IMG/VR virus record: IMGVR_UViG_2623620502_000003
Span: 1 to 12,828 of that record
Source of the DNA: a virus
Lineage: Duplodnaviria; Heunggongvirae; Uroviricota; Caudoviricetes
DNA length: 12,828 nt
Strand: one strand, 5' to 3'
Shown: one piece after another, positions 1,756-12,571 of the stretch
How the letters are laid out: each line of letters begins with the position of its first letter
Numbering within the stretch: position 1 is the stretch's first letter
The notes under the pieces: model-generated
The model's input: only the letters and a program-made list of their open reading frames with translations
Databases searched by the model: none
Told to the model about the DNA's origin: nothing
Position numbers and translations under genes: made by a program

Positions 1756-1765
1756 TGGGGTGAAT

Positions 1766-4700
1766 ATGGCAGTAAAAATTTCAGGTGTACTGAAAGACGG
1801 CACAGGAAAACCGGTACAGAACTGCACAATCCAGCTGAAAGCAAAACGTAACAGCACCACGGTGGTGGTGAACACGCTGGCCTCAGAAAATCCGGATGAA
1901 GCCGGGCGTTACAGCATGGACGTTGAGTACGGTCAGTACAGCGTTATTCTGTTGGTGGAAGGATTCCCGCCGTCACATGCCGGGACCATCACAGTGTATG
2001 AAGATTCCCGACCCGGTACGCTGAATGATTTTCTCGGTGCCATGACGGAGGATGATGCCCGTCCGGAGGCACTGCGCCGTTTTGAGCTGATGGTGGAAGA
2101 GGTGGCGCGTAACGCGTCCGTGGTGGCACAGAACACGGCAGCCGCGAAGAAGTCAGCCAGTGATGCCAGCACATCAGCCCGTGAGGCGGCAACCCATGCG
2201 ACTGATGCTGCAGGCTCAGCACGCGCAGCCAGCACGTCAGCCGGACAGGCCGCGTCGTCGGCTCAGTCAGCGACTTCCAGCGCAGGAACGGCATCAACAA
2301 AGGCCACTGAAGCATCAAAAAGTGCTGCCGCTGCAGAGTCCTCAAAAAGCGCGGCAGCTACCAGTGCCAGTGCCGCGAAAACGTCAGAAACGAATGCTGC
2401 AGCGTCACAACAATCAGCAGCCACTTCTGCATCCACCGCGACTACGAAAGCGTCAGAAGCTGCCACCTCAGCCCGGGATGCGGCGGCTTCAAAAGAGGCG
2501 GCAAAATCATCAGAAACGAACGCATCCTCCAGCGCCAGTAATGCCGCTTCCTCGGCAACGGCGGCAGGAAATTCCGCGAAGGCGGCAAAGACGTCTGAGA
2601 CAAACGCTAAGTCCTCTGAAACGGCAGCAGCACAGAGTGCCTCCGCAGCAGCAGGCTCAAAAACAGCGGCTGCGTCGTCTGCCAGTGCCGCGTCAACAAG
2701 TGCCGGGCAGGCCTCAGCCAGTGCTAGCGCCGCCGGAAAATCGGCAGAAAGCGCCGCATCGTCCGCTTCAACAGCCACAACGAAGGCTGGCGAAGCCGCT
2801 GTACAGGCCAGTGCAGCAGCGAGGTCTGCTTCCGCAGCGAAGACATCCGAGACGAACGCGAAAGCGTCGGAGACCAGCGCAGAATCCTCAAAAACGGCTG
2901 CCGCATCGTCCGCCAGTTCGGCGGCGTCATCGGCATCATCGGCGTCTGCTTCAAAAGATGAGGCGACCAGACAAGCGTCCGCAGCGAAGGGCAGCGCCAC
3001 GACAGCATCCACGAAGGCGACAGAGGCAGCTGGCAGTGCGACGGCGGCAGCACAGAGCAAAAGTACGGCGGAATCTGCAGCAACGCGCGCTGAGACAGCG
3101 GCAAAACGGGCAGAGGATATTGCATCCGCCGTGGCGCTTGAGGATGCGAGCACGACGAAAAAGGGGATAGTACAGCTCAGCAGTGCGACCAACAGCACTT
3201 CCGAGTCACTGGCGGCAACGCCAAAAGCCGTTAAGGCCGCGTATGACCTGGCTAACGGGAAATACACCGCACAGGATGCAACGACAGCACAGAAAGGGAT
3301 AATCCAGCTAAGCAGCGCGACCAACAGCACGTCTGAAACGCTGGCGGCAACGCCAAAGGCAGTAAAAGCAGCCAATGACAATGCTGAGAAACGTCTGCAG
3401 AAAGATCAGAACGGTGCGGATATCCCTGGCAAAGACACCTTTACGAAAAATATTGGTGCCTGCCGTGCCTTCGGTGGGTCAGTAAGCACAACAACAGGAA
3501 ACTGGACGACTGCACAGTTTATCGAGTGGCTGGATTCTCAGGGAGCATTTAACCATCCATACTGGATGTGCAAGGGTTCCTGGTCTTATGGCAATAATAA
3601 AATCATTACTGATACTGGCTGCGGTAATATTCATCTCGCCGGAGCTGTCATTGAAGTAATGGGGATAAAGTCAGCGATGACGATCCGCATTACCACACCG
3701 ACCACCTCCACTGGTGGTGGAACAACTAACGCCCAGTTTACCTATATTAATCACGGAACAGATTATTCACCTGGCTGGCGAAGGGACTATAACTCCAGAA
3801 ATAAGCCAACGGCATCAGAGATCGGGGCGTTACCGTCAGGTGGAACAGCAGTATCATCAGTTAATCTGTCTTCAAAAGGTCGGGTAACCGCGCTGACAGA
3901 CAATACGCAGGGGGCAACAGGTCTTGAGTTATACGAGGTGTATAACAACGGATATCCAACAGCGTATGGAAATATCATTCACCTGAAAGGGATGACAGCC
4001 GTTGGCGAAGGTGAGTTACTCATCGGCTGGAGTGGTACAAGCGGTGCTCATGCTCCGGCATTTATTCGTTCACGACGGGATACGACCGACGCAAACTGGT
4101 CGCCGTGGGCGCAGCTTTACACCTCGGCTCATCCTCCTGCAGAGTTTTATCCAGTCGGTGCACCAATCCCGTGGCCATCAGATACCGTTCCGTCTGGTTA
4201 TGCCCTGATGCAGGGGCAGACTTTTGACAAATCTGCTTACCCGAAACTTGCAGCTGCTTATCCGTCAGGCGTGATCCCTGATATGCGTGGCTGGATGATT
4301 AAGGGCAAGCCCGCCAGTGGTCGTGCCGTATTGTCTCAGGAACAGGACGGCATTAAATCGCACACCCACAGCGCCAGCGCATCCAGTACGGATTTGGGGA
4401 CGAAAACCACATCGTCGTTTGATTACGGCACTAAATCCACGAATAACACCGGGGCGCATACCCATAGTGTTAGCGGTACGGCTGCTTCAGCCGGTGCACA
4501 TACCCATTCGATGACATTTGTTTCAGGTGGTTCCAGTGGTGCTCCGGGAAGTGGATCACCTGATTATTCTAAATACAGTGTTAACACTTCTTCTGCAGGC
4601 GCTCATACGCACTCTGTATCGGGTACTGCTGCAAGCGCAGGTGCACACGCACATACTGTCGGTATTGGTGCTCATACGCACTCGGTTGCGATTGGCTCAC

Positions 4701-4789
4701 ATGGACACACCATCACCGTTAACGCTGCTGGTAACGCGGAAAACACCGTCAAAAACATTGCATTTAACTATATTGTGAGGCTTGCATAA
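1766..4789 (+). CDS. stf: Side tail fibre protein Stf (long, intact form)
   Basis: The N-terminus [37 protein letters not shown] matches lambda Stf as I recall it. The ATG at 1766 is preferred over the in-frame GTG at 1760 used by the ORF track. It contains a long Ala/Ser-rich region, a duplicated GI(V/I)[11 protein letters not shown](S/T)[11 protein letters not shown] motif and C-terminal G-A-H-T/A-H-S repeats, and is followed by tfa with a TAATG overlap. Confidence 0.85.
2140..3120 (+). repeat. Low-complexity Ala/Ser/Thr-rich coding repeats inside stf
   Basis: The translation is dominated by short units such as [14 protein letters not shown] and TSAGQASA. The GC-rich repetitive DNA also produces long spurious ORFs in other frames and on the opposite strand. 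Confidence 0.8.
3166..3375 (+). repeat. Tandem duplication of a ~25-aa fibre motif inside stf
   Basis: Two copies, [28 protein letters not shown] and [28 protein letters not shown], about 130 nt apart; the nucleotide sequences are diverged but clearly related. Confidence 0.75.
4355..4735 (+). repeat. His-containing G-A-H-T-H-S repeats in the Stf C-terminal tip domain
   Basis: At least seven HxH units in the translation (SHTHS, GAHTHS several times, GAHAHT, GSHGHT). Comparable His repeats occur in lambda Stf and T4 distal fibre tips, where they are thought to bind metal. Confidence 0.75.
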
Positions 4790-5375: not shown

Positions 5376-5423
5376 AAAAAAGAAAAACCGCAGACACGAC
5401 GTATGCATGACGTGCTGCGGTTT
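5376..5423. terminator. Bidirectional hairpin terminator between tfa and the GIY-YIG gene
   Basis: An A-run (5376-5387) precedes stem CCGCAG (5388-5393), an imperfectly self-complementary interior, stem CTGCGG (5415-5420) and TTT. Read on the minus strand the hairpin is followed by a long U-tract, so it should terminate the minus-strand gene strongly and tfa more weakly. Confidence 0.65.
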
Positions 5424-5442
5424 ATGCTTATCACTTAAAGAC

Positions 5443-6619
<1,177 letters not shown>

Positions 6620-8053
6620 ATGTCTGAATTTGAAGTGTTGGCACAGCATCTGCTGAAGGAAGCCGAGGCGGAAGAAAAGCTGCGACAGGAAAATGATAAA
6701 AAGCTTATCGAGAAAGTGCTGGAAATCTATGATCAGAAGTATGTAGCTGAATTACTGAGAAAAGTCGGAAAAAATGAGTGGAGCCGTGAAACCATTAACC
6801 GCTGGATTAATGGCAAGTGTTTACCAAAATCGTTGACTTCAGTAGAAGAGTCTCTTCTGCGTAAGATGCTACCAGAACCACCTGCAAACCATCCGGAATA
6901 TGCTTTCCGCTTCATTGACTTATTTGCTGGAATTGGAGGGATACGGAAAGGTTTTGAGGCCATTGGAGGCCAGTGTGTTTTTACCAGTGAATGGAATAAA
7001 GATGCTGTGCGTACATACAAGGCCAACTGGTTTAACGATGAACAGGTGCATAAATTCAATCTCGATATTCGGGAAGTCACGCTGAGTGATAAAACCGATG
7101 TATTGGAAACGGATGCTTATGCATATATTGATGAGCATGTGCCGGATCATGATGTGCTTCTTGCGGGGTTCCCGTGCCAGCCATTTAGCCTTGCTGGTGT
7201 TAGTAAGAAAAACTCACTTGGTCGTGCGCATGGTTTTGAATGTGAAGCACAAGGAACACTTTTTTTTGACGTGGCACGTATTATACGAGCAAAAAAACCG
7301 GCAATTTTTGTGCTGGAAAATGTCAAAAATCTGAAGAGCCATGATAAGGGTAAAACTTTCAAAGTCATTATGGAGACCCTTGACGAGCTGGGCTACGAAG
7401 TTGCCGATGCTGCAGAAATGGGAAAAAACGATCCAAAGATTATCGATGGGAAGCATTTTTTGCCTCAGCATCGTGAACGCATTGTTCTGGTCGGATTTAG
7501 ACGAGATCTGAATATTCACAAGGGGTTTACCTTGCGTGATATCAGTCGTTTTTATCCGGAACACCGCCCATCATTTGGTGAATTGCTGGAGCCTGTAGTC
7601 GACAGTAAATATATACTTACGCCAAAACTATGGGAGTACCTTTATAACTACGCCAAAAAGCATGCAGCCAAGGGGAATGGTTTTGGCTTTGGGTTGGTCA
7701 ATCCTGAGAATAAGGAAAGCATTGCACGCACACTTTCTGCCAGATATCACAAAGACGGATCAGAAATTCTTATTGATCGTGGTTGGGATATGGCAACGGG
7801 AGAGGCTGACTTTATGAATGAGAGTAACCAGGCTCGTCGACCACGCAGGCTGACTCCCCGAGAGTGCGCACGCCTTATGGGGTTTGAAAAACCTGGAGGG
7901 AAACCATTCCGTATTCCGGTTTCAGATACTCAGTCATATCGGCAGTTCGGTAACTCCGTTGTGGTGCCAGTATTTGAAGCCGTTGCCAGACTTCTGGAAC
8001 CCTATATCCTCAAAGCTGTTTCTGCTGATGCTGGTAAGACTGGGCAGCCTTGA
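6620..8053 (+). CDS. ecoRIIM: DNA cytosine-5 methyltransferase, Dcm/M.EcoRII family (expected CCWGG specificity)
   Basis: C5-methyltransferase motifs are present: [15 protein letters not shown] (AdoMet binding), [11 protein letters not shown] (catalytic Cys), ENVKNL and [10 protein letters not shown]. The GGAGG-preceded ATG at 6620 gives 477 aa, the length I recall for M.EcoRII; the ORF track's start at 6578 adds 14 aa with no good Shine-Dalgarno. Confidence 0.9.
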
Positions 8054-8059
8054 GAACAC

Positions 8060-8082
8060 CTCCCGGCCTTTTAAGCCGGGAG
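8060..8082. terminator. Hairpin in the convergent gap shared by the methyltransferase and endonuclease genes
   Basis: Perfect 8-bp stem CTCCCGGC (8060-8067) / GCCGGGAG (8075-8082) with loop CTTTTAA, lying between the methyltransferase stop (8053) and the endonuclease stop (8088). Confidence 0.6.
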
Positions 8083-8087
8083 TCAGC

Positions 8088-9302
8088 CTATGATAGTTCA
8101 GCGTAAAGTTCTATCAGCTCAGTAATGAATGCTCCGAGCGTTATTAATTCTTCTCTAACTGCTTCTGGGTATTTTTTATGTAAAGTTGATGGTACAACGA
8201 GTCTGACACCCGCATCTTTCATTTCTCGGTATTGTGCTGAAGAAACACCTTCTTGCAGCGTAAATAAATGTACCTGATGGATTTTATCTGCTTCATTCAG
8301 TATCTGACGCCAGCGATCTTTGCAGGTGGTCTTTACTGCCAGCATACGTAAGTTTTCTACAGGAAATTCAACGTCATGATATGCCTCTGCTGAAGGAAAC
8401 AGGAAATCTGGTTTTTTATTACCTTCAGTAACTGCCTGAGTGGAGAAATGTCGTAGTCCGTGCTCGATAAAAAGCTTCTCTAGGTGAAGTTCAAGTGATT
8501 TACCTGCCCTTGATTTACGTCGATTACTGACAGAGTTGGCTAATGCAATAAACTCATCTACAGAATTGAATCCTTTCTTAATAATATCAAGAACATGTAA
8601 TTCCTCGACGAGTAGAAAAATATCATACTCGACACGCCGACGGTCAATCAGTTGCTCATCTGGATCCTTGGAGTTTTTAGCATAATGGCCAGCAGCATAT
8701 TGAATAATTTCGTTTCCAGAAGGAAAACGCTTCTTCCAGTCTTCAGGAATAACATATTTATGATTTACTGGAGTTTGCTGAAGAGACAATCCGCCCAAAA
8801 TTTGTCCGGCAGGGCCGGAAATTAGGGTTCCAGGTATGATTTCGCCAATAGCAGACTCGATGATATCCTCTTCATCGGGATTGACGCAGACCCATATATC
8901 TACCTCGGAACAGTCAGTGTTCTGTTCGTTTAACCTGAAAGCAAGAATTGTGAGGGCTCCTGTATTTTCAGAGTTCTGTAATGGACTTCCTCTCCCCCAG
9001 CGCGTAATTCTTTTTTCGTTTCGGGTCTTACCAAAATAACGGTTGTTGTAATAAATTGCGCGTGCTTGGGTATCAGGGCAATCATGGGATGATACATGCG
9101 CAGTAAGGAAGACTGAAGGGTTCAGTTCGCGAGTATGATTGATAGAAGGAAAAAGCTTTTCAACGATATTTGAGGGGATATAAAGTCCGACCTGATGGCC
9201 ACCTGTTGCGCCTGTGTCGTTTGCAGAAAGGCGTTTGATGTAGATAAAGTAATTCCCGCTTGCGATATCAAGCAGCCAGTTATGAAAAACCGACATATAC
9301 AT
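8088..9302 (-). CDS. ecoRIIR: Type IIE restriction endonuclease, EcoRII-like
   Basis: 404 aa, the length I recall for R.EcoRII, convergent with a Dcm-family methyltransferase as in the EcoRII system. The N-terminus (MSVFHNWLL...YIKRLSANDTGATGGHQVGLYIPS) matches my recollection of the EcoRII effector-binding domain. The second ATG at 9296 has better Shine-Dalgarno spacing (AAGGG) and may be the true start. Confidence 0.8.
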   Translation of the reverse strand: MYMSVFHNWLLDIASGNYFIYIKRLSANDTGATGGHQVGLYIPSNIVEKLFPSINHTRELNPSVFLTAHVSSHDCPDTQARAIYYNNRYFGKTRNEKRITRWGRGSPLQNSENTGALTILAFRLNEQNTDCSEVDIWVCVNPDEEDIIESAIGEIIPGTLISGPAGQILGGLSLQQTPVNHKYVIPEDWKKRFPSGNEIIQYAAGHYAKNSKDPDEQLIDRRRVEYDIFLLVEELHVLDIIKKGFNSVDEFIALANSVSNRRKSRAGKSLELHLEKLFIEHGLRHFSTQAVTEGNKKPDFLFPSAEAYHDVEFPVENLRMLAVKTTCKDRWRQILNEADKIHQVHLFTLQEGVSSAQYREMKDAGVRLVVPSTLHKKYPEAVREELITLGAFITELIELYAELS

Positions 9303-9382
9303 CCCTTTGTTAACATACAGTCAGGGTTAACATTTTTCCATAGTTATAGATAAGCGGCTAGGAACTTAAGGGAAAAACAAAA

Positions 9383-9404
9383 AGCCCGCATAAGCGGGCT
9401 TTTG
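9383..9404. terminator. Hairpin terminator upstream of the endonuclease gene
   Basis: Stem AGCCCGC (9383-9389), loop ATAA, stem GCGGGCT (9394-9400), then TTTTG; on the minus strand it is followed by TTTTTGTTTTT. It would block read-through from the IS5 side into the endonuclease gene. Confidence 0.55.
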
Positions 9405-9512
9405 TGTCACTCGAGAGCCGCGGCTCCTTTGCGTATCTTTTTTGTCTCCTCACCGTCTGGTCGGTGTCCTGCTGAGACTGCTAATTTCCTGTTTTTGTTA
9501 GTACTGTCCTAG

Positions 9513-9528
9513 GGAAGGTGCGAATAAG
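9513..9528. repeat. IS5 terminal inverted repeat (IRR end)
   Basis: GGAAGGTGCGAATAAG, the inverted counterpart of 10693-10708. Confidence 0.9.
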
Positions 9529-9659
9529 CAGGTCATTTCTTCCCAAGCTGACTCGCTGATTAAAATTTCGCGGTTCTGGGCCGATTTTTTTCCCGCAAAC
9601 ACATCGAATCAGCCTATTTAGGCTATTTTTTCCACCATTTCTGGCGTTATTTCCGGTTT

Positions 9660-10685
<1,026 letters not shown>

Positions 10686-10692
10686 TCAGGAA

Positions 10693-10708
10693 CTTGTTCG
10701 CACCTTCC
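10693..10708. repeat. IS5 terminal inverted repeat (IRL end)
   Basis: CTTGTTCGCACCTTCC, the reverse complement of GGAAGGTGCGAACAAG. Confidence 0.9.
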
Positions 10709-10970
10709 CTAACTAGTTCTTTAATCCAATAGCCTAAGCTCATCATGCAGTTGGATCATAAGACAACGCCCTATAGTGCTCGTGATACTATAGGGCATCT
10801 GACCACACTGTTAACTGGAGTAACGACTATGGCAGGAATACAGCATAACTAAACTCACCCCAAACTTACATAGCGCTTTCTGGCCGTGAGCATAACAAGG
10901 TCCGCTCCTCGCTCATAACAGACATTCACTACAGTTATGGTAGAAGGTATGCATGCTGGGTGGGGAAAGT

Positions 10971-11170: not shown

Positions 11171-11216
11171 ATTCGTAATGCGAAGGTCGTAGGTTCGACT
11201 CCTATTATCGGCACCA
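11171..11216 (+). other. Attachment-site core: 3'-terminal 46 nt of tRNA-Thr(CGU), a partial tRNA rather than a gene
   Basis: ATTCGTAATGCGAAGGTCGTAGGTTCGACTCCTATTATCGGCACCA matches the anticodon loop (anticodon CGT), T-arm (GGTTCGACTCC) and 3' acceptor strand with CCA of the E. coli thrW-type tRNA as I recall it. The upstream 30 nt do not encode a D-arm or 5' acceptor strand. A P4-type integrase gene starts ~165 bp downstream. Confidence 0.75.
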
Positions 11217-11380
11217 TCACCTAGTTTTCCCAAGTCAACCCACATCAACAAAATCATTTAAAAACATATATATTACGTTATTTTCATACGTTTGAGGTCA
11301 ACCCTTGTCTCTTGAAATCAACACGCGGTTGGGGGCACAATCAGGGGCATGTTCTGTTCGGTCTAGGAAATGTGCCCCCA

Positions 11381-12571
11381 ATGATGCTGAATGCCCGCAA
11401 GGTTGAAGCTGCGAAAGGAAAAGAGAAGAGCTACAAGCTGTTTGATGGAGGTGGCCTATACCTTCAGGTCGAACCTAATGGCTCGCGTTACTGGCGTATG
11501 AAATACCGTTTTGCTGGTAAAGAGAAACGATTGTCCTTTGGTGTTTATCCAACAGTCACACTTGCTGATGCCAGACAAAAACGAGAAGACGCGAAGAAAC
11601 TACTCGCAGCAGGTGAAGATCCCGGCGAAGTCAAAAAAGCCAAAAAGCAGGCTTTAAATGCAGCGATTGAGACACTTAACCCATTCAGAGAAGTGGCGTT
11701 AGAGTGGCACAAAATGAAATCACCCAAATGGTCTGAGGGCTATGCTTCCGACATCATTGAGGCATTCGAGAAAGACATTTTCCCGCATATTGGGCACAGA
11801 CCTATAGCTGATATTCAGCCCCTTGAACTGCTTGAAGTTCTGAGGTTGATAGAAGCTCGAGGCGCTATGGAGAAAGCGAAGAAAGTCCGTCAGCGATGCG
11901 GTGAAGTTTTTCGCTATGCCATCGTAACGGGTAGGGCAATCTACAATCCGGCACCGGATCTTGCCAGTGCGATGCAAGGACATGAAGCAGTCCACTATCC
12001 ATTCCTCAAAGCCAACGAACTACCGGAGTTCTTTAATGCCCTTAATTCTTATTCAGGAAGTCCAATTGTATTGTTGGGGGCGCATTTACTTATCCTGACA
12101 GGTCTACGAACTGGAGAACTACGAGCAGGTGAGTGGCGAGAGGTGGATTTTGATAATGCGGTGTGGGAGATCCCAAAAGAACGTATGAAAATGCGTAGGA
12201 GCCATATTGTCCCGTTGTCAAAACAAGCATTATCCCATCTCAAAAGTTTGAAAGAACTAACTGGGAACTACCCGCTGATGTTCCCTGGACGCAACGATCC
12301 TAGCAAATTTATGAGTGAAGCAAGCATTAATCAGGTGTTTAAACGTATTGGATATGCAGGGCGTGTTACGGGGCATGGTTTCAGGCATACGATGAGTACA
12401 ATCCTACATGAGAAAGGATTTAACAGCGCTTGGATTGAAACCCAGCTTGCTCATTCGGACAAAAACTCTATTCGTGGAATTTATAACCATGCCCAATATC
12501 TCGAAGGGAGAAGAGAAATGATGCAATGGTATGCTAATTATTTATCTGAGCTAATTGGTACTCATAAATGA
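11381..12571 (+). CDS. int: Site-specific tyrosine integrase, P4-type
   Basis: The N-terminus has the arm-binding-domain pattern (KLFDGGGLYLQVEPNGSRYWRMKYRFAGKEKRLSFGVYP); the C-terminus has catalytic Arg (LRTGELR), H-x-x-R (GHGFRHT) and Tyr (IRGIYNHAQY). The ATG at 11381 is preferred over the TTG at 11312. It is immediately downstream of a tRNA-derived att core. Confidence 0.9.
   Translation: MMLNARKVEAAKGKEKSYKLFDGGGLYLQVEPNGSRYWRMKYRFAGKEKRLSFGVYPTVTLADARQKREDAKKLLAAGEDPGEVKKAKKQALNAAIETLNPFREVALEWHKMKSPKWSEGYASDIIEAFEKDIFPHIGHRPIADIQPLELLEVLRLIEARGAMEKAKKVRQRCGEVFRYAIVTGRAIYNPAPDLASAMQGHEAVHYPFLKANELPEFFNALNSYSGSPIVLLGAHLLILTGLRTGELRAGEWREVDFDNAVWEIPKERMKMRRSHIVPLSKQALSHLKSLKELTGNYPLMFPGRNDPSKFMSEASINQVFKRIGYAGRVTGHGFRHTMSTILHEKGFNSAWIETQLAHSDKNSIRGIYNHAQYLEGRREMMQWYANYLSELIGTHK

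What the first reader, a model, noticed from the sequence alone, without database searches (positions are those of the whole stretch)
6620..9302. EcoRII-like type IIE R-M system carried as prophage cargo
A Dcm-family C5 methyltransferase (477 aa from the GGAGG-preceded ATG) and a 404-aa endonuclease are arranged tail-to-tail with a 34-bp gap holding a shared perfect 8-bp hairpin. Lengths, orientation and N-terminal sequences fit the plasmid-borne EcoRII system (CCWGG) as I recall it, but here the pair sits inside a lambdoid tail-fibre-to-att region. A phage-borne R-M of this specificity would be tolerated in dcm-positive hosts and would act as a superinfection-exclusion and addiction module after lysogeny. 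EcoRII-type enzymes need two recognition sites, which bears on which incoming phages are restricted.
Basis: partly seen in the sequence, partly recalled or inferred. Interest (0 to 1): 0.5.

Follow-up and report, generated by a model that had tools for sequence, protein, structure and literature searches.

The report
Prophage-borne EcoRII-type restriction-modification pair
This is an intact, diverged copy of the classic EcoRII (CCWGG) restriction-modification system carried at the far end of an E. coli prophage beside a second nuclease defence gene; it is a known kind of system, and its usefulness is unclear because almost every E. coli already methylates CCWGG.

Summary
Window 6620-8053 (+) encodes a 477-aa C5 methyltransferase. 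Window 8088-9302 (-) encodes a 404-aa endonuclease. The genes converge across a 34-bp gap that holds a perfect 8-bp hairpin.

The endonuclease is 87% identical, without gaps, to crystallised EcoRII. It keeps all 27 residues that the structural paper assigns to catalysis, CC:GG reading, base flipping and effector-site binding. The methylase is 91% identical to plasmid M.EcoRII and 69% to K-12 Dcm. DNA identity to the plasmid system is only about 80% (dS about 1.7, dN/dS 0.03-0.05), so this is an old allele under strong purifying selection.

The pair sits between the tail-fibre assembly gene and the attachment boundary. It forms a 4.1-kb cassette (5385-9510) with the neighbouring PD-T4-3/CMoRE nuclease. 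This cassette recurs at 98.5-99% identity in lambdoid and in myovirus-type prophages, in about 4.5% of complete E. coli genomes.

The "addiction and superinfection exclusion" reading is only partly supported. dcm-vsr is present in 98.8% of E. coli genomes, and published work shows Dcm blunts both effects.

Verdict: an ordinary new member of a known family, with a modestly interesting context.

The parts
5385..9510 (.). Mobile 4.1-kb defence cassette (CMoRE + methylase + endonuclease + 208-bp right flank), with the same boundaries in unrelated prophage backbones
   Evidence: blastn of the window against fetched loci: homology at 98.5-99% starts at 5385 and ends at 9510 in lambdoid and myovirus-type prophages and in IMG/VR proviruses
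5443..6216 (-). PD-T4-3 / CMoRE GIY-YIG type IV nuclease (257 aa from the RefSeq start; the mechanical ORF runs to 6267)
   Evidence: PADLOC PD-T4-3 E=9.6e-140. PDB 9U75 E=5e-171, near-identical alignment. Pfam LEM-3 GIY-YIG. Function from PMC12923530
6383..6427 (+). Left junction of the R-M sub-module: a degenerate copy of an ssrA-3'-end-like (att-like) sequence
   Evidence: CMoRE-only prophages lose homology at 6414-6427 and R-M-only loci gain it at 6397. Alignment with the right-hand junctions and with ssrA itself
6532..6560 (+). Promoter-like site upstream of the methylase gene (TAGTCA-17-TAAAAT). Similarity to the plasmid EcoRII locus begins here
   Evidence: Consensus scan. Plasmid matches begin at window ~6537. 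Upstream alignment shows a conserved CCAGA...TCTGG inverted repeat. Function is inferred
6611..6615 (+). GGAGG ribosome-binding site of the methylase gene
   Evidence: Sequence read directly
6620..8053 (+). C5 cytosine methyltransferase, 477 aa, M.EcoRII/Dcm subfamily, with an N-terminal regulatory domain
   Evidence: Pfam DNA_methylase 4.4e-78 plus DNA_meth_N 6.6e-27. NCBIfam NF007772 927 bits against a cut-off of 710. 91% identical to plasmid M.EcoRII and 69% to K-12 Dcm. Motifs FxGxG, PCQ, ENV, QxRxR and GNS present
8060..8082 (.). Intergenic hairpin shared by the convergent genes (8-bp perfect stem, 7-nt loop)
   Evidence: Sequence and ViennaRNA fold. Stem conserved in the plasmid locus while flanks diverge. 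Not called as an intrinsic terminator
8088..9302 (-). EcoRII-type restriction endonuclease, 404 aa (402 aa from the ATG at 9296)
   Evidence: PDB 1NA6 E=6e-243, gap-free over 403 residues. Pfam EcoRII-N and EcoRII-C. 87% identical to plasmid EcoRII. 27 of 27 functional residues kept (against PMC2770665)
9343..9348 (-). -10-like hexamer TATAAC upstream of the endonuclease gene (TATAAT at the matching place in the plasmid locus)
   Evidence: Upstream sequences compared side by side. Inferred only
9380..9403 (-). Strong terminator-like hairpin followed by a T-run, upstream of the endonuclease gene. In ssrA-integrated relatives it lies downstream of ssrA
   Evidence: Terminator scan, 10 pairs. Position relative to ssrA in L006. 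Role inferred
9513..10708 (-). IS5 insertion (326-aa transposase at 9660-10640) at the right edge of the cassette
   Evidence: Pfam DDE_Tnp_1/DUF772. Terminal repeats GGAAGGTGCGAA read directly. Flanks are CTAG and CTAA. It replaces 1955 bp that are present in L001
11171..11216 (+). Last 46 nt of tRNA-Thr thrW: the attachment-site repeat marking the boundary between the lambdoid prophage region and the next element
   Evidence: Identical to positions 31-76 of K-12 thrW. Matches the Sp1/Sp2 boundary of O157 Sakai. ARAGORN finds no complete tRNA
11312..12571 (+). P4-type tyrosine integrase of a separate neighbouring element (not part of the R-M-bearing prophage)
   Evidence: Pfam Arm-DNA-bind_3, Phage_int_M and Phage_integrase. 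63% identical to Sakai Sp2 IntS

Best explanation
The pair is a functional EcoRII-type type II (IIE) restriction-modification system specific for CCWGG, carried as accessory cargo at the attachment-site end of a temperate phage.

Inferred mechanism, from identity with the characterised enzymes:
- The methylase puts 5-methylcytosine on the inner C of CCWGG. It probably represses its own promoter through its N-terminal domain, as M.EcoRII does.
- The endonuclease is an autoinhibited dimer. Its N-terminal B3-like domains must bind one CCWGG copy as an effector before the C-terminal PD-(D/E)XK core flips the central base pair and cuts a second, unmethylated CCWGG.

Expected behaviour in a lysogen:
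- It should cut incoming DNA that lacks CCWGG methylation. Sources would be dcm-negative hosts or other taxa, or possibly fast-replicating, under-methylated phage.
- It should ignore m5C-marked self DNA.
- The adjacent CMoRE nuclease cuts 5hmC/5ghmC DNA and spares C and 5mC. The cassette as a whole should therefore cover unmodified and hypermodified cytosine genomes without self-conflict.

What is shown: gene integrity, family membership, residue conservation, purifying selection, prophage location and modular spread. What is inferred: specificity, the two-site requirement, regulation and the defence phenotype.
For: - The endonuclease matches PDB 1NA6 at E=6e-243 without gaps and has both Pfam EcoRII domains.
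- All residues named in PMC2770665 are identical (paper text). These are the active site (E271, D299, K324, E337), CC:GG reading (K328, D329, R330, N260), the flipping pocket (R222, E225, Y226, F229, R265, A266) and effector-domain contacts (N28, H36, Q37, Y41, R81, Y85, K92, T93, R94, E96, R98, T100, R101).
- The methylase is 91% identical to plasmid M.EcoRII and 69% to Dcm. It scores above the NF007772 cut-off and has the catalytic motifs and DNA_meth_N.
- Against the plasmid locus, dN/dS is 0.033 for M and 0.048 for R, with dS about 1.7.
- The endonuclease reads as a full-length open frame in 40 of 41 closely related loci and the methylase in 38 of 41.
- Prophage context.
- The three-gene cassette is present in 244 of 5426 complete genomes.
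- CMoRE identity and substrate range.
Against: - No biochemical or methylome data exist for this allele. With 13% amino-acid divergence, altered specificity or kinetics cannot be formally excluded.
- dcm-vsr is present in 98.8% of E. coli genomes. Phage grown on ordinary E. coli should therefore already be protected, which leaves the selective benefit unclear.
- CCWGG is not depleted in the window: 18 sites against 22 expected.
- No GenBank phage record carries a close copy. Transfer inside virions is therefore inferred from prophage and circular-record context only.
- No convincing sigma-70 promoter was called for the endonuclease gene.
Confidence: 0.85

Rival explanations
1. The pair works mainly as an addiction (post-segregational killing) module that stabilises the prophage. 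Loss of the prophage would dilute the methylase and let the residual endonuclease cut the chromosome.
For: EcoRII is one of the systems for which post-segregational killing has been described (PMC3874152). The pair sits on a mobile element next to its attachment site.
Against: The same review reports that solitary Dcm attenuates killing after EcoRII loss. dcm-vsr is present in 5359 of 5426 complete E. coli genomes. About 250 genomes carry this system and only 67 lack dcm-vsr, so nearly every carrier must be dcm+.
Confidence: 0.15
2. The module mainly benefits the phage. The methylase guarantees complete CCWGG methylation of progeny genomes, protecting them against EcoRII-type systems on plasmids and in other lysogens. 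The endonuclease would be secondary.
For: EcoRII-type systems are common on enterobacterial plasmids: 648 PLSDB records, mostly conjugative. The methylase is under even stronger constraint than the endonuclease, with dN/dS 0.033 against 0.048.
Against: Host Dcm already supplies this mark in 98.8% of genomes. The endonuclease is kept intact with all functional residues, which an anti-restriction methylase alone would not require.
Confidence: 0.2
3. The endonuclease is silent or decaying and the methylase acts as an orphan. The pair would then be a remnant without restriction activity.
For: Four of 41 related loci carry single-base homopolymer deletions in M or R. Host Dcm would make loss of either gene tolerable.
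Against: In this window both frames are intact. dN/dS is 0.03-0.05 at saturated synonymous divergence. 27 of 27 functional residues are kept. The lesions seen elsewhere are all -1 changes in homopolymers of draft assemblies, the pattern expected of sequencing error.
Confidence: 0.07
4. The allele has a shifted specificity (for example CCNGG or CCSGG) rather than CCWGG.
For: It shows 13% amino-acid divergence from EcoRII. Relatives such as Ecl18kI (CCNGG) share the fold and give a weak hit at E=2.6e-4.
Against: All base-contacting and pocket residues in both domains are identical to EcoRII. The methylase is 91% identical to M.EcoRII across the variable region as well.
Confidence: 0.04

Closest known systems
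EcoRII restriction-modification system of enterobacterial plasmids (R.EcoRII, PDB 1NA6/3HQF/3HQG; M.EcoRII)
   Same: Same gene lengths (477 and 404 aa), same convergent layout and a gap of about 34 bp with the same hairpin stem. Same two-domain endonuclease and same N-terminal regulatory domain on the methylase. Every catalytic, recognition and effector residue is identical.
   Different: Only about 80% DNA identity, and 87% (R) and 91% (M) protein identity, with synonymous sites saturated. It is chromosomal and prophage-borne instead of being on conjugative plasmids. The flanks beyond window ~6537 and ~9314 are unrelated. It is linked to CMoRE.
E. coli Dcm-Vsr (solitary chromosomal CCWGG methylase with repair endonuclease)
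   Same: Same methylase subfamily (NF007772) and 69% identity. Presumably the same target and the same methylated base.
   Different: Dcm has no partner restriction enzyme and is co-transcribed with vsr. The window pair has an endonuclease and no vsr, so it presumably relies on the host copy.
Burkholderia phage KL3 EcoRII-C endonuclease / Vsr / methylase module (PMC3091744)
   Same: A temperate-phage-encoded CCWGG-type restriction-modification module that has been discussed as phage cargo.
   Different: The KL3 endonuclease matches only the C-terminal half, residues 171-397 at 38% identity. It lacks the effector domain and so is not type IIE. The module includes its own vsr, and all its genes are co-oriented.
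Stx-phage-borne PstI-like system EcoGIII/M.EcoGIII of E. coli O104:H4 and O111
   Same: A type II R-M carried by a lambdoid prophage of E. coli (cited in PMC6602927).
   Different: It recognises CTGCAG with an m6A methylase. The enzyme families are unrelated, and no solitary host methylase gives the same mark.
PD-T4-3 / CMoRE (PDB 9U75, 9U7U)
   Same: The neighbouring gene at 5443-6216 is this protein.
   Different: It is a separate single-gene type IV system. It is relevant because it co-travels with the R-M pair, not because the pair belongs to it.

Membership tests
EcoRII-family (type IIE) restriction endonuclease | Two-domain architecture: N-terminal B3-like effector domain plus C-terminal PD-(D/E)XK catalytic domain | tested here: met
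   Pfam EcoRII-N (residues 18-165, 4.7e-60) and EcoRII-C (229-393, 1e-71). Gap-free alignment to 1NA6 over residues 1-403
EcoRII-family (type IIE) restriction endonuclease | Active-site residues Glu271, Asp299, Lys324, Glu337 | tested here: met
   All four are identical. Residue list from PMC2770665
EcoRII-family (type IIE) restriction endonuclease | CC:GG reading triad Lys328-Asp329-Arg330 plus Asn260, and the base-flipping pocket | tested here: met
   All ten residues are identical
EcoRII-family (type IIE) restriction endonuclease | Effector-domain residues that read CCWGG asymmetrically (N28, H36, Q37, Y85, R94, E96, R98) and the phosphate contacts | tested here: met
   All thirteen residues are identical
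EcoRII-family (type IIE) restriction endonuclease | Cleaves unmethylated CCWGG and needs a second site as allosteric effector | not testable with these tools
   Biochemical property, inferred from residue identity only
M.EcoRII / Dcm C5-cytosine methyltransferase subfamily | Conserved C5-MTase motifs, including the catalytic PCQ cysteine and ENV | tested here: met
   FAGIG at residue 102, PCQ at 185, ENV at 233, QHRER at 283, GNS at 444. Pfam PF00145 4.4e-78
M.EcoRII / Dcm C5-cytosine methyltransferase subfamily | Scores above the curated subfamily threshold | tested here: met
   NCBIfam NF007772, 927 bits against a cut-off of 710
M.EcoRII / Dcm C5-cytosine methyltransferase subfamily | N-terminal autoregulatory DNA-binding domain | tested here: met
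   Pfam PF18284 DNA_meth_N, residues 28-84, 6.6e-27. The repressor function itself is taken from the literature (PMC12707154) and was not tested
M.EcoRII / Dcm C5-cytosine methyltransferase subfamily | Methylates the inner cytosine of CCWGG | not testable with these tools
   Needs bisulfite or EM-seq in a dcm-negative background
Prophage accessory cargo (moron / b-region-type) | Lies inside prophage boundaries, between the late or tail-fibre genes and the attachment site, and is absent from otherwise similar prophages | tested here: met
   Downstream of tfa or pinE and within 0.2-2 kb of ssrA or the thrW repeat. CMoRE-only prophages lack it
Prophage accessory cargo (moron / b-region-type) | Present on the excised or circular phage genome | tested here: inconclusive
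   Three PLSDB 'plasmids' (30-44 kb) carry it at 99% identity. The one inspected is a circular 43.7-kb record with a full phage gene set. No virion-derived GenBank phage genome carries it
Post-segregational-killing (addiction) module | Loss of the genes kills or arrests the host | not testable with these tools
   The literature reports that Dcm attenuates this for EcoRII, and 98.8% of E. coli genomes have dcm-vsr. The prediction is that it is not operative in typical hosts

The most novel reading that the evidence does not exclude
The CMoRE nuclease and the EcoRII-type pair may be a co-selected defence cassette keyed to cytosine status. Unmodified CCWGG would be cut by the EcoRII-type enzyme. 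5hmC and glucosyl-5hmC DNA would be cut by CMoRE. 5mC would be the shared 'self' mark that neither enzyme touches. The cassette hops as one 4.1-kb unit between unrelated temperate phages next to their attachment sites. The R-M part appears to have been captured by recombination at an ssrA-type att sequence, since degenerate att-like repeats bracket it. A corollary is that the R-M persists in a Dcm-positive species because it polices DNA arriving from Dcm-negative lineages or under-methylated, fast-replicating phage.
Probability: 0.3. Interest if true: 0.45.

Novelty: new member of a known kind. Interest (0 to 1): 0.3.

Why it matters
- It shows that the textbook plasmid enzyme EcoRII has a long-diverged sister allele. 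That allele lives on temperate phages in roughly one in twenty sequenced E. coli, where it is annotated only generically.
- It poses a concrete puzzle. It is unclear what maintains an intact CCWGG endonuclease (dN/dS about 0.05) in a species where 98.8% of genomes already methylate CCWGG, which should blunt both restriction and addiction.
- Its fixed linkage to a 5hmC-specific nuclease gives a simple, testable example of complementary defences packaged together on phages.
- None of this changes how the enzyme family is understood.

Tried and rejected
- tRNA/tmRNA scan of the window found nothing. The attachment repeat was found only by reading the sequence and aligning it to K-12 thrW.
- CCWGG avoidance: 18 sites against 22 ± 4.8 expected, so no depletion.
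- The intergenic hairpin as a bidirectional intrinsic terminator: the scan did not call it and no T-run follows it. It is kept only as a conserved hairpin of unproven role.
- Near-identity search of GenBank phage genomes found no match. A protein-level search found only KL3 and two faecal contigs at 37-40% identity.
- The window's exact source genome is not in the complete-genome set. The best single place covers 86% of the window.
- The idea that the P4-type integrase at 11312-12571 belongs to the R-M-bearing prophage was rejected. It lies beyond the thrW repeat and corresponds to a separate Sp2-like element.
- The NILS69 'RM island' paper that co-mentions PD-T4-3 concerns an unrelated HNH system.
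- Frameshifted M or R copies in four related loci were considered as evidence of decay or phase variation. They were set aside as probable homopolymer sequencing errors, but this is not resolved.
- The first script calls missed loci because several loci share one file. This was fixed.
Full report
**1. Observation.**
- A + strand ORF runs from the ATG at 6620 to the stop at 8053 and gives 477 aa. GGAGG lies at 6611-6615.
- A - strand ORF at 8088-9302 gives 404 aa.
- The genes converge. The 34-bp gap (8054-8087) holds a perfect 8-bp inverted repeat, CTCCCGGC/GCCGGGAG at 8060-8067/8075-8082, with a 7-nt loop.
- The hairpin has no T-run and is not called as a terminator. Its stem is identical in the plasmid EcoRII locus although the rest of the gap differs, so it is conserved and not a chance match.
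- RefSeq annotators start the endonuclease two codons later, at 9296 (402 aa).

**2. Identity of the endonuclease.**
- It matches crystallised EcoRII (1NA6) at E=6e-243 over residues 1-403 without a gap.
- It carries both Pfam EcoRII-N and EcoRII-C.
- A plasmid copy (L004) is essentially the crystallised sequence. It served as the canonical reference, and the window endonuclease is 87% identical to it.
- The structural paper on EcoRII-N and EcoRII-C (PMC2770665) names 27 functional residues: 4 active-site, 4 for CC:GG reading, 6 lining the flipped-base pocket, and 13 effector-domain contacts. All 27 are identical in the window protein at the same numbering.

**3. Identity of the methylase.**
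- It is 91% identical to the plasmid M.EcoRII copy and 69% to K-12 Dcm.
- It scores 927 bits against the 710-bit cut-off of NCBIfam NF007772.
- It has the FxGxG, PCQ, ENV, QxRxR and GNS motifs.
- It has the N-terminal DNA_meth_N domain. A review links this domain to autorepression of the M.EcoRII gene (PMC12707154).

**4. An old allele, not a recent transfer from plasmids.**
- DNA identity to plasmid EcoRII is about 80%.
- By Nei-Gojobori, dS is about 1.7 for both genes. dN/dS is 0.033 for M and 0.048 for R, and is low in every domain.
- Homology to the plasmid locus is confined to window ~6537-9314. This covers the methylase promoter region, both genes and a few bases before the endonuclease start.
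- Across 41 closely related loci, the endonuclease frame is full length in 40 and the methylase frame in 38.
- The four lesions are all single-base losses in homopolymers of draft assemblies. These are probably sequencing errors.

**5. Genomic context.**
- Upstream genes are the end of J, Lom, a 1009-aa tail fibre and Tfa.
- In the strain with a 100% match (NT1F31) the same pair closes a complete lambdoid structural operon running from portal to tail fibre.
- The right end of the window is composite:
  - IS5 lies at 9513-10708. Its flanks do not match (CTAG against CTAA), and it replaces 1955 bp seen in NT1F31.
  - About 460 bp follow the IS5.
  - Next come the last 46 nt of tRNA-Thr thrW at 11171-11216.
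  - A P4-type integrase follows. It is 63% identical to IntS of the Sakai Sp2 element.
- The layout therefore mirrors the Sp1/Sp2 tandem at thrW in O157 Sakai.

**6. Modularity and spread.**
- Homology at 98.5-99% begins at exactly 5385 and ends at exactly 9510 in several unrelated settings:
  - lambdoid siphovirus-type prophages;
  - myovirus-type prophages with a baseplate, YmfQ, an invertible tail fibre and PinE;
  - a 43.7-kb circular PLSDB record with a full phage gene set;
  - more than 30 IMG/VR proviral contigs.
- Integration sites include ssrA, with the endonuclease start about 235 bp from the tmRNA gene, and the thrW/pao region.
- 244 of 5426 complete E. coli genomes carry the three genes contiguously. 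A few carry the R-M pair without the neighbouring gene.
- Many more genomes carry the neighbouring gene alone, with homology ending at window 6414-6427.
- Comparison of a CMoRE-only prophage with a cassette-bearing phage shows a degenerate repeat of about 45 bp bracketing the R-M sub-module. In ssrA-integrated relatives this repeat is the real 3' end of ssrA. This suggests capture at an att-type site. That step is inference.

**7. The neighbouring gene.**
- The gene at 5443-6216 (-) is PD-T4-3 (PADLOC E=9.6e-140).
- It is near-identical to the crystallised CMoRE protein 9U75.
- The CMoRE paper reports cleavage of 5hmC and 5ghmC DNA and no binding or cleavage of unmodified or 5mC DNA (PMC12923530).
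- It is therefore compatible with an m5C methylase next door. It covers T-even phages, whose modified cytosines make them resist type II enzymes.
- That paper does not discuss prophage context; the word 'prophage' does not occur in it.

**8. Function.**
- From identity to the characterised enzymes, the most likely mechanism is standard EcoRII behaviour: m5C protection of CCWGG, an autoinhibited dimer, and activation by a second CCWGG.
- The biological role is less clear. dcm-vsr is present in 5359 of 5426 genomes.
- Published work reports that Dcm attenuates EcoRII post-segregational killing (PMC3874152) and protects lambda from EcoRII (PMC4924334).
- Addiction, and exclusion of E. coli-grown phage, are therefore expected to be weak. 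The enzyme should act mainly on DNA from CCWGG-unmethylated sources.
- CCWGG is not depleted locally.
- Strong purifying selection on both genes nevertheless argues that the system is used.

**9. Novelty.**
- Phage-borne CCWGG-type modules have precedent in Burkholderia phage KL3. That module is an EcoRII-C-only enzyme with its own vsr.
- Lambdoid prophage-borne type II systems in E. coli also have precedent in the Stx-phage PstI-like system.
- I found no paper describing this allele or its linkage to CMoRE. REBASE could not be consulted.
- It is best filed as a new member of a known kind, of modest interest.

Noticed in passing
window 5443-6216 (-): The gene next to the methylase is the validated single-gene defence system PD-T4-3/CMoRE, a GIY-YIG type IV nuclease specific for 5hmC/5ghmC DNA. 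It travels with the R-M pair as one 4.1-kb cassette (5385-9510) in 244 of 5426 complete E. coli genomes. It also occurs alone at the same prophage position in many more, including Sp1 of O157 Sakai.
   Followed up: yes
window 6383-6427; L002 23208-23260; L006 15508-15570: The R-M sub-module is bracketed by a degenerate direct repeat of about 45 bp. In ssrA-integrated prophages this repeat is the genuine 3' end of ssrA. CMoRE-only prophages have a single copy. This suggests the pair was captured by recombination at an att-type site.
   Followed up: partly
window 9513-10708: An IS5 copy sits exactly at the right edge of the cassette. It has non-identical 4-bp flanks (CTAG and CTAA) and replaces 1955 bp that encode a 450-aa hypothetical protein in strain NT1F31. 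This points to an IS-associated deletion, not a simple insertion.
   Followed up: partly
window 11171-11216 and 11312-12571: The last 46 nt of tRNA-Thr thrW (an attachment-site repeat that ARAGORN does not detect) are followed by a P4-type integrase 63% identical to IntS of Sakai Sp2. Two mobile elements therefore sit in tandem at thrW.
   Followed up: yes
window 7260-7267 (T8) and 7291-7297 (A7) in the methylase gene; related loci L031, L038, L045, L046: Four of 41 related loci have single-base homopolymer deletions that break the methylase frame (three loci) or the endonuclease frame (one locus). Two of them would be M-minus/R-plus, viable only because host Dcm gives the same mark. All are in draft IMG assemblies, so sequencing error is the simpler explanation.
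   Followed up: partly
window 9380-9403 (-): A strong terminator-like hairpin (10 pairs plus a T-run) lies upstream of the endonuclease gene. In ssrA-integrated relatives it lies about 110 bp downstream of the ssrA 3' end on the same strand. It may terminate ssrA transcription and shield the endonuclease gene from read-through.
   Followed up: no
window 10764-10792: A perfect 10-bp inverted repeat (GCCCTATAGT ... ACTATAGGGC, 9-nt loop) lies in the non-coding stretch between IS5 and the thrW repeat. Its function is unknown.
   Followed up: no
window 1760-4789 (+): The tail-fibre gene contains a long Ala/Ser/Thr-rich low-complexity repeat region. This region generates several long spurious ORFs in other frames and on the opposite strand, for example 2263-3381 (-) and 2160-3170 (+).
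   Followed up: no
L043 and L047 (IMG/VR): Further proviral contigs carry endonucleases 82% and 52% identical to the window protein. Metagenomic viral contigs carry ones at about 39%. EcoRII-like enzymes on phage-like elements therefore form a wider, graded series.
   Followed up: no
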